Shown here in pieces: positions 18,327 to 19,945 of a stretch of DNA of 54,055 nt; the stretch's first letter is position 1; each line of letters begins with the position of its first letter. Location of the stretch: positions 1-54,055 of the forward strand of contig JASLKH010000014.1 in NCBI GenBank assembly GCA_030747675.1, in the 5' to 3' direction. The position numbers were made by a program, and so were the translations under genes. Origin of the DNA: Candidatus Thalassarchaeaceae archaeon (GTDB taxonomy: Archaea > Thermoplasmatota > Poseidoniia > Poseidoniales > Thalassarchaeaceae). Below the pieces are notes generated by a model. The model was not told the DNA's origin and ran no database searches. It saw nothing but the letters and a program-made list of their open reading frames with translations.

Positions 18327-18608
18327 ATGTCCAGTGAAAGCAAAAGCAATGGTGAGCAAGGCACTTCATTTGAAGGGCGTGTGCAAGCATGGCAAGACAA
18401 CATAGAATCTGGAGTCCGTGGGTTAGGGAAGGGTTCTTGGGCACGTATTTTGAAGATGGCACGCAAGCCAACTTCGCTTGAATTTAAGCAAACATGTATT
18501 GTCTGTGGAATCGGAATGTTTGTGCTCGGCTTTATTGGATTTGTATTACTCGTCTTGATGGACAATGTCCTACCATCTTTCTTTGATTGGTTGACTGGTG
18601 GCTATTAA
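18327..18608 (+). CDS. secE: Protein translocase subunit SecE/Sec61-gamma
   Basis: RILKMARKPTSLEF followed by TM GIGMFVLGFIGF; canonical position. Confidence 0.92.
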   Translation: MSSESKSNGEQGTSFEGRVQAWQDNIESGVRGLGKGSWARILKMARKPTSLEFKQTCIVCGIGMFVLGFIGFVLLVLMDNVLPSFFDWLTGGY

Positions 18609-18621
18609 AGGAGTTGAGAAA

Positions 18622-19593
18622 ATGACTGAGCTCGATGAAGATATAGACGTAAACGAAGAAATTATGGAAGAATCAGAAACTAAGAATGAAGTTGTGGTAG
18701 AAGATTTCAATATGGATGATTCACCAAAATCTGACGGATTCATTGCATTTGTACGTCATGAAGACAAAGTTCTCCTATTACAAAGAGCCGATTCAGTGGC
18801 TGACTTTGCAGGGGCTTGGGATGGTATTTATGGCGTCGGAGATTCAAGAGACATCAATGTCGTTTTGACTAGAATTGAACAAGCGACTGGTATTCCTGCA
18901 TCCTCTCTAACCCATGTTCGTAGTGGTGCGCCACGTGGTGTAGAAATGGGGAATCGCCTCTTTGATATCCGTCCAATGCTCTTCCTTTCTGAATCAACTG
19001 AAGTTGAACCAAAGACATTGTACAAGAGTGCAGATTGGGTCGACCCGGGTTCTATACAAGACAAATCATACAGTGTATCTCAACTTGGACAATTGTATGG
19101 AGATGTTTCCGCTTACCTCTACATTGTAAAGACGACTATTGGCCAGGAAGAAAAGGTAGCAAGAGAAATGCAAGCACGCCTTTCTGGAACTGGTTCTCTC
19201 CAAGATATTCGTGACGAAATCTATGGTGTATTACATCCATCAGTCATGCGAGGGTACATCTTTGTTGAAGCAAGTGCTTTCCACCACGTTGAGAAATTGA
19301 TTGGGCGTGCCGGAGATCGAACGACACCATTGAAGAATTGTAGTCGTGTATTGCCTGGAACTGCGCCACTTGGTGATGTCACACCTTACCTTGAACCCAA
19401 GGCAGCAACAGCTGGTATCGAAGAAGGAGACATCGTCGAAATACGTGTTGGTGCTTTCAAAGGTGAACGAGCCCGTGTCACAAACATCGCTGAGACCAAG
19501 GAAGAAGTCACTGTTGAGCTGTTTGAAGCCGCGGTACCAATCCCGATTACAGTGAGAGCAGATCAAGTGCGCGTCACACAACGCGTGGACTAA
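18622..19593 (+). CDS. spt5: Transcription elongation factor Spt5/NusG with an N-terminal acidic tail and Nudix-like domain
   Basis: NGN domain (YIVKTTIGQE...RGYIFVEA) and KOW (IEEGDIVEIRVGAFKGERARV). About 160 extra N-terminal aa include KVLLLQR...AGAWDGIYG. SD-like GGAGTTGA precedes ATG 18622. Confidence 0.93.
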   Translation: MTELDEDIDVNEEIMEESETKNEVVVEDFNMDDSPKSDGFIAFVRHEDKVLLLQRADSVADFAGAWDGIYGVGDSRDINVVLTRIEQATGIPASSLTHVRSGAPRGVEMGNRLFDIRPMLFLSESTEVEPKTLYKSADWVDPGSIQDKSYSVSQLGQLYGDVSAYLYIVKTTIGQEEKVAREMQARLSGTGSLQDIRDEIYGVLHPSVMRGYIFVEASAFHHVEKLIGRAGDRTTPLKNCSRVLPGTAPLGDVTPYLEPKAATAGIEEGDIVEIRVGAFKGERARVTNIAETKEEVTVELFEAAVPIPITVRADQVRVTQRVD

Positions 19594-19624: not shown

Positions 19625-19666
19625 CAGGGAGCAAGTCGGCGAGGCGCTTGAATAGGAGATGAGACC

Positions 19667-19945
19667 ATGTCTGCACGCAATGAAACCCCTCACACAGTAC
19701 TGAAAACACTCGGTCAAGAGAAGTGTAATGGGTCATGGGATGCATCGACAGAAAACCTCTCAATTCAGCAAGTCATTGAGGTTTCTGAAACCAAAAAGGA
19801 CAAACTCACAGGTAAAGATCAGAAGGCGCGTGCCTTGGAAGTAATGGGAACATGTGTCTCAATGCGCGTTAATGTAGAAGGCATGCGCCCGAAGGAAGCT
19901 ATTGCAGCAGTAAAGAACGGAGACTTTGATTCACAATTCAATTAA
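19667..19945 (+). CDS. rpl11: Ribosomal protein uL11, C-terminal domain only
   Basis: 92 aa. NLSIQQVIEV...ARALEVMGTCVSMRVNVEG..PKE...GDFD matches the archaeal L11 CTD. Syntenic between spt5 and rpl1; no N-terminal domain is present. Confidence 0.85.
   Translation: MSARNETPHTVLKTLGQEKCNGSWDASTENLSIQQVIEVSETKKDKLTGKDQKARALEVMGTCVSMRVNVEGMRPKEAIAAVKNGDFDSQFN

What the first reader, a model, noticed from the sequence alone, without database searches (positions are those of the whole stretch)
18622..19113. Spt5/NusG fused to an acidic tail and a catalytically degenerate Nudix domain
Seen: about 160 aa precede the NGN domain in the same frame. They comprise an E/D-rich ~35-aa tail, then FIAFVRHEDKVLLLQRADSVADFAGAWDGIYG...WVDP, a recognisable Nudix scaffold. 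The Nudix box (GX5EX7REUXEEXGU) reads GVGDSRDINVVLTRIEQATGI, so RE becomes TR and EE becomes QA. Known: archaeal Spt5 is normally only NGN+KOW (~150 aa), Nudix folds bind RNA caps and nucleotide metabolites, and eukaryotic Spt5 has an acidic N-terminus. Inference: an RNA-polymerase-tethered pseudo-Nudix could sense the nascent 5' end (NAD/NpnN cap, triphosphate) or a nucleotide signal, or serve as a protein-docking module. That would be an archaeal elongation-control device I do not know to be described.
Basis: partly seen in the sequence, partly recalled or inferred. Interest (0 to 1): 0.82.

Follow-up and report, generated by a model that had tools for sequence, protein, structure and literature searches.

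The report
Dead Nudix domain fused to Spt5
In the marine archaeal order Poseidoniales, the universal transcription elongation factor Spt5 carries an extra, very acidic N-terminal domain that is a Nudix hydrolase without its catalytic residues, an arrangement I could not find described and whose function is still open.

Summary
Window 18622-19593 (+) is one 323-aa gene. It has a 36-aa acidic tail, a 128-aa Nudix-fold domain (AlphaFold2 pLDDT 93.6; best structural matches are Nudix proteins, Z about 15), then a normal Spt5 NGN+KOW with no linker between.

The Nudix box is degenerate in every ortholog looked at. Across 34 species, box Glu16 is Arg in 33 and box Glu20 is never Glu. Further residues that are 88-100% conserved in 42 catalytic relatives are also replaced.

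The fusion is a feature of the whole order, not of this genome. It was found in 279 of 301 genomes, in 66 of 66 high-quality ones and in 26 of 26 genera. Five sister-order genomes have a plain Spt5 plus a separate 136-aa Nudix gene with an intact box, and that gene is the reciprocal best hit of the fused domain. The domain is under purifying selection (dN/dS about 0.04-0.18) and is about twice as acidic as the window's background.

The acidic tail is a local add-on, present in 6 of 15 genomes of one genus.

Function is untested. My best reading is a non-catalytic acidic accessory module on the RNA-polymerase-bound NGN. A metabolite or RNA 5'-end sensor remains a live rival.

Side finding: the adjacent L11 gene lacks its N-terminal domain across the order.

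The parts
18327..18608 (+). secE (Sec61-gamma), upstream neighbour in the conserved secE-spt5-rpl11-rpl1 cluster
   Evidence: ORF. Pfam SecE 19.3 bits, E 0.0011, below the 22.7 cut-off. A 87-108 aa ORF lies upstream of spt5 in most related loci.
18610..18613 (+). GGAG, a Shine-Dalgarno-like motif 8 nt before the ATG at 18622
   Evidence: Read from the sequence. That it acts as a ribosome-binding site is inference.
18622..18729 (+). Acidic tail, residues 1-36, net charge -13, predicted disordered; a lineage-specific add-on
   Evidence: pLDDT 55-59. Charge. Tails of 36-62 aa in 6 of 34 species aligned, which is 6 of 15 genomes of genus g1. dN/dS 0.22-0.72.
18730..19113 (+). Nudix-fold domain without catalytic residues (residues 37-164), net charge -6
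   Evidence: AF2 pLDDT 93.6, pTM 0.88. Foldseek gave 258 PDB matches at E<=1e-3; those listed are almost all Nudix hydrolases or Nudix-fold proteins. VIA Z 13.3-14.9 to Nudix chains over residues 35-165. Reciprocal best hit to an intact standalone Nudix.
18832..18894 (+). Degenerate Nudix box, residues 71-91 (21 aa instead of 23): GX5E reads GX5D, RE reads TR, EE reads QA
   Evidence: Across 34 species: box Arg15 kept in 3, Glu16 in 0 (Arg in 33), Glu19 in 28, Glu20 in 0.
19114..19392 (+). Spt5 NGN domain (residues 165-257), starting directly after the last helix of the Nudix-like domain
   Evidence: Pfam PF03439 at 166-227. VIA: 3lpe NGN rmsd 1.4 A over 84 residues, model range 163-260; 3qqc Z 13.9.
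19417..19593 (+). Spt5 KOW domain (residues 266-323) and stop codon
   Evidence: Pfam KOW at 268-299, 21.0 bits, just under the 22.3 cut-off. TIGR00405 covers 167-321. 9bct_G and 3p8b_B align over 163-323 at 39-40% identity.
19667..19945 (+). rpl11 encoding only the C-terminal rRNA-binding domain (92 aa); neighbour and side finding
   Evidence: Pfam PF00298 at residues 10-70, with no N-terminal domain. PF03946 was found in 0 of 51 high-quality genomes of the order but in 9 of 9 sister-order genomes.

Best explanation
Shown: this is the Spt5 elongation factor of a member of Ca. Poseidoniales (Marine Group II). Once, at the base of the order, a small MutT-like Nudix hydrolase gene was fused without a linker to the first strand of the NGN domain. 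The captured domain kept the Nudix fold. It lost the metal-binding glutamates and other pocket residues, evolved fast on the stem branch, became strongly acidic, and has since been held under purifying selection. Inferred mechanism: it no longer hydrolyses anything. It works as a non-enzymatic acidic head on the Spt4/5-RNA polymerase elongation complex. Because it joins NGN strand 1, it should sit at the rim of the DNA cleft next to the clamp-bound NGN. There its negative surface, or a newly conserved polar patch (R45, D67, R84, R105, Y134, D141), would do one of two things: shield or steer nucleic acid like a DNA mimic, or dock a partner. Either would tune elongation, pausing or termination. 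It enlarges an acidic N-terminal peptide that sister-order Spt5 proteins already have. In part of one genus it is extended further by a disordered acidic tail, and the window belongs to that group.
For: Fold: AF2 pLDDT 93.6; Foldseek matches are almost all Nudix-fold proteins; VIA Z 14-15 at rmsd 2.2-2.9 A over about 120-129 residues.

Homology: 9 of 20 orthologs hit PF00293. The ortholog profile hits 3grn at E 3.9e-4 and NudC at 0.003. In the sister order the homolog is a separate 136-aa gene with a canonical box, and its best hit in the window's genome is the Spt5 N-domain (E 7.4e-11, against 3.5e-6 for the next Nudix).

Loss of chemistry: box Glu16 is kept in 0 of 34 species and Glu20 in 0 of 34. 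Positions that are 88-100% conserved in 42 catalytic relatives are replaced in the 33 fused sequences: three box Glu, a downstream Trp-Glu and a His.

Single origin and rapid change: the fused sequences form one clade (SH-aLRT 100) on a stem branch of 2.05.

Distribution: 279 of 301 genomes, 66 of 66 high-quality, 26 of 26 genera. Five of the 22 misses were re-searched. Three had no Spt5 match at all and two had only contig-end KOW fragments; none had a plain Spt5.

Constraint: dN/dS is 0.04-0.18, against 0.01-0.05 for NGN-KOW. Mean pairwise identity is 0.55, against 0.69.

Acidity: net charge is -5 to -17 in the fused domains (median -12), against a median of -3 in catalytic relatives. That is -9.2 per 100 aa, against -4.7 for window ORFs of 200 aa or more. 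Sister-order Spt5 frames begin with 11-24 acidic residues before the NGN in 5 of 5 loci (read by eye).

No linker: Nudix helix 155-162 is followed by NGN strand 165-171, and the residues at the junction, Y159, G160 and V162, are invariant.

Spt4 is still present and of normal size, so the domain does not replace Spt4.
Against: No function was measured. The domain's position on RNA polymerase is inferred from recalled structures, not modelled here. New invariant arginines (R45, R84, R105), the kept R55 and the mostly kept Glu19 (28 of 34) could equally form a phosphate or ligand site, which favours the sensor rival. Acidity may partly reflect the generally acidic proteome (window median -4.7 per 100 aa). 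No histone passed the cut-off in this 78%-complete genome, so a eukaryote-like histone-handling role for the acidic N-terminus has no obvious client. dS is saturated (above 0.9 in all six pairs), so the dN/dS figures are rough.
Confidence: 0.55

Rival explanations
1. Ligand or RNA-end sensor. The dead Nudix domain still binds a nucleoside-diphosphate-X metabolite (ADP-ribose, NAD(H), Ap4A and the like) or the 5' end of nascent RNA. It would pass this signal to the NGN, making elongation or termination respond to metabolic state, as NrtR, AraR and TRPM2-NUDT9H use inactive Nudix domains as sensors.
For: The fold matches ligand-binding, non-catalytic Nudix domains about as well as it matches enzymes: NrtR Nudix domain with ADP-ribose (3gz8) Z 14.6, rmsd 2.3 A over 121 residues; AraR (5bs6) Z 13.6; MUTYH C-terminal domain Z 13.3. 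Arg replaces the metal-binding Glu16 in 33 of 34 species. R45, R55 and R105 are invariant or nearly so inside an otherwise acidic domain, and Glu19 is kept in 28 of 34. Together these could bind phosphates without metal. RppH bound to RNA is among the Foldseek matches.
Against: The likely substrate-contact residues of the closest catalytic relatives (His at the position-117 equivalent in 88%, Trp-Glu at 132-133 in 90-100%) are not kept in the fused clade, so the ancestral pocket was remodelled rather than preserved. The domain attaches to the NGN, not to the KOW, and nothing places it near the RNA exit. R84 could simply neutralise the remaining acidic cluster from within.
Confidence: 0.25
2. 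Residual or altered hydrolase. The domain is still an enzyme with an unusual active site, for example one using Asp74, Asp77, Glu87 and Arg84, and acts on transcripts or nucleotides at the polymerase.
For: Acidic residues remain at D74 (29 of 34), D77 (25 of 34) and box position 19 (Glu in 28 of 34). Strong purifying selection.
Against: Two of the three helix glutamates are absent in 34 of 34 species. The downstream Glu that is 100% conserved in 42 catalytic relatives is lost. In the window's own protein position 19 is Gln, so none of the three helix Glu remains. By recalled enzymology of MutT, loss of these residues costs several orders of magnitude in kcat.
Confidence: 0.05
3. Not a real fusion. 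The upstream 164 codons are an annotation or assembly artefact, or cells make only an internally started ~160-aa Spt5.
For: None found. RNA-library contigs cover only short pieces (18371-18584, 19155-19327, 19661-19700), so a single transcript across the junction was not shown.
Against: The same continuous frame (288-390 aa) occurs in 279 of 301 genomes. dN/dS of the domain is 0.04-0.18. Contigs from two DNA runs of different studies cross the junction without indels. There is no Met between residue 31 and the NGN in the window protein. In most orthologs the only start lies immediately before the Nudix-like domain.
Confidence: 0.02

Closest known systems
Archaeal Spt5 (NusG family), e.g. the Spt4/5 structures of Methanocaldococcus jannaschii (3lpe), Pyrococcus furiosus (3p8b, 3qqc) and Thermococcus kodakarensis (9bct)
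   Same: Residues 163-323 align to these chains over the whole NGN+KOW at 27-40% identity, Z 13.9-14.7. TIGR00405 is passed. The gene sits in the secE-spt5-rpl11-rpl1 cluster. Spt4 is encoded elsewhere in the genome.
   Different: Those proteins begin at NGN strand 1. Here 164 extra residues precede it: a tail and a Nudix-fold domain.
Small MutT-like Nudix hydrolases, in particular the 136-aa standalone gene of the sister order (L044:1450-1857:-, L045:1468-1875:-)
   Same: They align end to end with the fused domain (26% and 23% identity to the window's domain in alignment A2; 28% and 26% in the genome search). They are reciprocal best hits and share the fold.
   Different: The standalone gene has an intact GX5EX7REUXEEXGU box. 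The fused domain has lost Glu16, Glu20 and downstream pocket residues, has a spacer 2 aa shorter, and is far more acidic. No curated NCBIfam equivalog cut-off is reached by the standalone relatives, so their substrate is unknown.
Non-catalytic Nudix domains used as binding modules: NrtR (3gz8), AraR (5bs6), MutY/MUTYH C-terminal domain (7ef9); also, recalled only, CFIm25/NUDT21, TRPM2 NUDT9-H and DBC1
   Same: A Nudix fold with a degenerate box, fused to or working with nucleic-acid machinery. Structural match Z 13.3-14.6.
   Different: Those are fused to wHTH, glycosylase or channel domains, and none to an NGN-KOW elongation factor. Ligand or nucleic-acid binding is demonstrated for them and untested here.
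Eukaryotic Spt5 N-terminal acidic region (recalled, not examined in any call)
   Same: An acidic, partly disordered extension N-terminal to the NGN of Spt5.
   Different: The eukaryotic region is disordered and has no Nudix fold. Here the conserved part is a folded domain and the disordered tail is confined to part of one genus. This is presumably convergence. No histone gene passed the cut-off in this genome.

Membership tests
Spt5/NusG elongation factor | NGN domain followed by a KOW domain | tested here: met
   TIGR00405 119.1 bits (cut-off 69.95) over residues 167-321. Pfam NGN E 2.5e-10; KOW 21.0 bits, just under the 22.3 cut-off. Structural alignment to archaeal Spt5 chains Z 13.9-14.7.
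Spt5/NusG elongation factor | Partner Spt4 encoded in the genome; conserved position beside secE and rpl11/rpl1 | tested here: met
   PF06093 at G000:C99, 40.5 bits, over the cut-off. The likely Spt4 ORF is about 69 aa. Gene order.
Spt5/NusG elongation factor | Binds the RNA polymerase clamp coiled-coil and stimulates elongation | not testable with these tools
   Needs biochemistry or a modelled polymerase complex.
Nudix superfamily (fold level) | Alpha/beta/alpha Nudix fold with a loop-helix-loop at the box position | tested here: met
   AF2 pLDDT 93.6. 258 Foldseek matches at E<=1e-3; those listed are almost all Nudix-fold proteins, TM up to 0.75. VIA Z up to 14.9.
Nudix superfamily (fold level) | Detectable sequence homology to Nudix proteins | tested here: met
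   The window sequence alone gives no PF00293 hit at E<=1. Against that, 9 of 20 orthologs hit it (best E 6e-7), the profile hits PDB 3grn at E 3.9e-4, and there is a reciprocal best hit to an intact Nudix.
Nudix hydrolases (enzymes) | Nudix box GX5EX7REUXEEXGU with the metal-binding Glu residues | tested here: not met
   Window: G-X5-D, a 5-aa spacer, then T-R-I-E-Q-A-T-G-I. Across 34 species: Arg15 in 3, Glu16 in 0, Glu19 in 28, Glu20 in 0.
Nudix hydrolases (enzymes) | Pyrophosphohydrolase activity | not testable with these tools
   Requires an enzyme assay.
Nudix-like sensor regulators (NrtR/AraR type) | Degenerate Nudix domain fused to a winged-helix DNA-binding domain | tested here: not met
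   The fusion partner is NGN+KOW; no HTH was found by Pfam.
Nudix-like sensor regulators (NrtR/AraR type) | Binds an effector (ADP-ribose, arabinose) in the former active site | not testable with these tools
   There is only fold similarity to 3gz8 and 5bs6. The pocket residues of catalytic relatives are not kept.

The most novel reading that the evidence does not exclude
The pseudo-Nudix head makes Spt5 a signal-reading elongation factor. It would read a nucleotide-derived metabolite, an RNA 5' end or a base of the non-template strand in its remodelled cleft and convert that into pausing or termination. Its birth also coincided with loss of the L11 N-terminal domain in the neighbouring gene, so the two changes would together mark a lineage-wide rewiring of how transcription and the ribosome's factor-binding centre are controlled in one of the ocean's most abundant archaeal groups.
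Probability: 0.12. Interest if true: 0.85.

Novelty: new variant of a known kind. Interest (0 to 1): 0.62.

Why it matters
Spt5/NusG is the only transcription factor conserved in all domains of life, and archaeal Spt5 is normally a minimal NGN+KOW protein. An added domain that is conserved across a whole order and under selection implies an extra layer of elongation control in Poseidoniales. These archaea are uncultured but among the most abundant in surface oceans. It is also a clean natural case of an enzyme captured and turned into a pseudoenzyme module: the intact standalone relative still exists in the sister order, so the evolutionary path can be tested. The question is experimentally tractable. 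The domain and the sister-order enzyme can be expressed, assayed and compared, and a deletion or chimeric Spt5 can be tested on a model archaeal RNA polymerase. The co-distributed truncation of ribosomal protein L11 is an independent oddity and deserves its own study.

Tried and rejected
Single-sequence searches with the window's N-terminal part found no Nudix: Pfam and NCBIfam at E<=1, phmmer against the PDB, and PF00293 against the window's genome (which found seven ordinary Nudix genes but not this domain). Homology became visible only through orthologs and profiles.

Replacement of Spt4 was rejected, because Spt4 is present and of normal size.

A histone-handling role like that of the eukaryotic acidic N-terminus found no client. 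PF00808 gave only a sub-threshold match inside a 750-aa frame, in a genome that is 78% complete.

Naming the ancestral enzyme failed. The sister-order Nudix and five close relatives reach no NCBIfam equivalog cut-off. Some close relatives are fused to IF-2B / ribose-1,5-bisphosphate-isomerase-like domains; this is noted but was not pursued.

Complex prediction, with the NGN (residues 165-257) against the Nudix-like domain (37-164) as partner, gave no verdict: score 0.00 against a mark of 0.32. It is not used either way, so rigid packing of the two domains remains an inference from the missing linker and the invariant junction residues.

The careful tree did not finish within the time limit. 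The quick IQ-TREE tree was used, and it cannot resolve which catalytic lineage is sister to the fused clade.

RNA-library contigs cover only short pieces of the locus, so transcription of the fused frame as one unit, and its 5' end, were not shown.

Literature: seven searches, plus passages of PMC9258230, PMC8501993 and PMC6461757 read with 'find'. Five searches aimed at the Nudix-Spt5 fusion and two at the L11 truncation; neither was found described. This library lacks most subscription journals, and supplements were closed and not seen, so supplementary domain-architecture tables could mention it.

Full report
What is there. Window 18622-19593 (+) is one open frame of 323 codons. A GGAG lies 8 nt upstream of its ATG, directly after the secE stop. 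Residues 165-323 are an ordinary archaeal Spt5. TIGR00405 scores 119.1 bits against a cut-off of 69.95 over residues 167-321. Pfam finds NGN at 166-227 and KOW at 268-299. A full-length AlphaFold2 model (pLDDT 84.5, pTM 0.67) aligns over residues 163-323 to solved Spt5 chains from Thermococcus, Pyrococcus and Methanocaldococcus (Z 13.9-14.7, 27-40% identity). The gene order is ftsZ, secE, spt5, rpl11, rpl1. The 164 residues in front of the NGN are the finding.

The N-terminal domain is a Nudix fold. The window's own sequence hits no Pfam or NCBIfam model at E<=1 and no Nudix chain by phmmer. Its orthologs do: 9 of 20 full-length relatives hit PF00293, best E 6e-7. A profile of 35 domain sequences has Nudix proteins as its six best PDB matches (3grn E 3.9e-4, three NADH pyrophosphatase sequences E about 0.003, then two more Nudix enzymes). 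AlphaFold2 on that alignment gives pLDDT 93.6 and pTM 0.88, with the expected strand-helix pattern. Foldseek returns 258 PDB matches at E<=1e-3, and those listed are almost all Nudix hydrolases or Nudix-fold proteins. VIA-align gives Z 13.3-14.9 over residues 35-165, including the non-catalytic Nudix domains of NrtR, AraR and MUTYH. Residues 1-36 are predicted disordered (pLDDT 55-59) with net charge -13.

It is catalytically degenerate, and more so than the box alone shows. In the window the box reads G-X5-D, then five residues instead of seven, then T-R-I-E-Q-A-T-G-I. Across 34 species, box Arg15 is kept in 3 and Glu16 in 0 (Arg in 33, Cys in 1). Glu19 is kept in 28; the window has Gln. Glu20 is kept in 0, and the final Gly in 34. 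I compared 33 fused domains with 42 catalytic relatives taken from a search of 1.84 billion representatives (1195 hits at E<=1e-3). The relatives keep the three helix Glu in 98-100%, a downstream Trp-Glu in 90-100% and a His in 88%. The fused clade has replaced all of these except Glu19. It has also gained its own invariant residues: R45, D67, G68, R84, R105, G106, Y134, D141, G143, Y159, G160 and V162. Hydrolase chemistry is therefore very unlikely, and the ancestral substrate pocket was remodelled rather than preserved.

Where it came from and how wide it is. A six-frame search of one genome per species found the domain in 279 of 301 genomes of the window's order. That covers 66 of 66 genomes at least 90% complete, 26 of 26 genera and all three families, always inside open frames of about 288-390 aa unless cut by contig ends. 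I re-searched five of the 22 misses with the whole protein. Three had no Spt5 at all and two had only contig-end KOW fragments; none had a plain Spt5. Titles of the public records that hold the closest relatives name Ca. Poseidoniales, Thalassarchaeaceae and Marine Group II. Outside the order but in the same class, five of five genomes have an Spt5 that matches only residues 163-321. In three of them I identified the best match to the N-domain as a separate ~136-aa gene elsewhere in the genome. In the two where I read the ORF it has a canonical Nudix box. A fourth genome gave only a weak partial match and the fifth gave none. That standalone gene's best hit in the window's genome is the Spt5 N-domain (E 7.4e-11; the next Nudix gives 3.5e-6). 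In a quick maximum-likelihood tree the 33 fused domains form one clade (SH-aLRT 100) on a stem branch of 2.05 substitutions per site. Together this points to a single capture of a small MutT-like Nudix gene at the base of Poseidoniales, followed by rapid change and then conservation.

Selection and charge. Nei-Gojobori dN/dS in six pairs is 0.04-0.18 for the Nudix-like domain, 0.01-0.05 for NGN-KOW and 0.22-0.72 for the tail. dS is saturated, so the ratios are rough. Mean pairwise identity is 0.55 for the domain and 0.69 for NGN and for KOW. The domain is acidic in every species examined: net -6 to -17 in the 34, and a median of -12 (range -5 to -17) in the 33. The median for catalytic relatives is -3. 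Per 100 residues it is -9.2, against -4.7 for the window's ORFs of 200 aa or more. Sister-order Spt5 frames already carry 11-24 acidic residues before the NGN in 5 of 5 loci. I read this by eye, taking the first Met as the start.

The acidic tail is a local feature. Tails of 36-62 aa (net -13 to -25) occur in 6 of 34 species aligned. All six belong to the window's genus, where they make up 6 of 15 genomes examined. The other orthologs start right at the Nudix-like domain. The tails share a conserved acidic start and are weakly constrained, so they are probably translated, but they are not part of the order-wide device.

Not an artefact. Contigs from two DNA runs of different studies cross secE, tail, Nudix-like domain and NGN with 1-2 substitutions and no indels. 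One of them may be the source of this DNA. RNA-library contigs cover only short pieces, so a single transcript was not shown. There is no Met between residue 31 and the NGN.

How it most likely works. Shown: a folded, conserved, acidic, catalytically dead Nudix domain is joined without a linker to NGN strand 1 (helix 155-162, then strand 165-171). The junction residues Y159, G160 and V162 are invariant. Spt4 is retained. Inferred: by recalled structural work on archaeal Spt4/5, NGN strand 1 contributes to the surface that binds the clamp coiled-coil. If so, the domain should lie at the rim of the DNA cleft rather than at the RNA exit. I take it to be a non-enzymatic accessory head that acts through its acidic surface, through its newly conserved polar patch, or through both. 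It would either shield or steer nucleic acid or dock a partner, and so tune elongation, pausing or termination (confidence 0.55). The main rival is a sensor of a nucleotide metabolite or of an RNA 5' end, as in NrtR, AraR or TRPM2 (0.25). It is supported by the conserved arginines and by fold similarity, and weakened by loss of the ancestral pocket residues. Residual catalysis (0.05) and a non-fusion artefact (0.02) are unlikely. A complex-prediction job on NGN against the Nudix-like domain gave no verdict and is not used.

Comparison and novelty. The protein is a member of the Spt5/NusG family and of the Nudix fold superfamily. It is not a Nudix hydrolase by the box criterion. Non-catalytic Nudix modules are known, and so are N-terminal acidic extensions of eukaryotic Spt5. 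A Nudix-fold domain on an NGN-KOW factor did not appear in five full-text searches aimed at it or in the passages I read. Supplements were closed, and most subscription journals are not in the library. I rate it a new variant of a known kind.

Side finding. The next gene, rpl11 (19667-19945), encodes only the C-terminal rRNA-binding domain (92 aa). ORFs of 92-95 aa, a few longer only because an earlier alternative start codon was picked, follow spt5 in most of the 80 related loci, and ORFs of 90-104 aa follow it in loci of the other two families. The L11 N-terminal domain model PF03946 was found in 0 of 51 genomes of the order at least 90% complete (f1 0 of 19, f3 0 of 32) and in 0 of 2 genomes of family f2. 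It was found in 9 of 9 and 2 of 2 genomes of the two families outside the order, and in 14 of 14 control genomes. So the gain of the Nudix-like domain on Spt5 and the loss of the L11 N-terminal domain have the same distribution and lie in adjacent genes. Whether they are functionally linked is unknown. Relatives are not independent samples, and this may be coincidence on one long branch.

Noticed in passing
window 19667-19945 (+); related loci L072-L151, L047-L054: Ribosomal protein L11 is only 90-95 aa, the C-terminal rRNA-binding domain alone. The L11 N-terminal domain (PF03946) was not found in 0 of 51 high-quality genomes of the order or in 0 of 2 genomes of family f2. It is present in 9 of 9 and 2 of 2 genomes of the neighbouring families in the same class and in 14 of 14 control genomes. 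Its distribution matches that of the Nudix-Spt5 fusion exactly. Two literature searches found no description.
   Followed up: partly
L039-L043 (sister-order spt5 loci): Plain Spt5 proteins of the sister order begin with 11-24 mostly acidic residues before NGN strand 1. I read this by eye from the frames printed. An acidic N-terminus may therefore predate the Nudix capture.
   Followed up: no
P0152, P0164, P0172, P0189, P0193, P0197, P0198 (one search hits): Among the closest catalytic relatives of the captured domain are 377-488-aa proteins with this Nudix type at the N-terminus. The two that were scanned (P0152, P0164) carry an IF-2B / ribose-1,5-bisphosphate-isomerase-like domain after it. 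This hints that the ancestral enzyme acted in ribose-phosphate or nucleotide salvage.
   Followed up: partly
alignment A2 columns 125-141 (between window residues 147 and 150); e.g. L023, L025, L031, L038, L047-L052, L055, L056: Several genera carry insertions of roughly 10-17 aa, mostly acidic or polar, in the loop before the last helix of the Nudix-like domain. One whole family (f3) has its own conserved version.
   Followed up: no
L047-L052 (family f3 spt5): Family f3 Spt5 proteins have an extra segment of about 9 aa, rich in Arg, Gly and Pro, in the NGN-KOW linker that family f1 lacks (frames printed).
   Followed up: no
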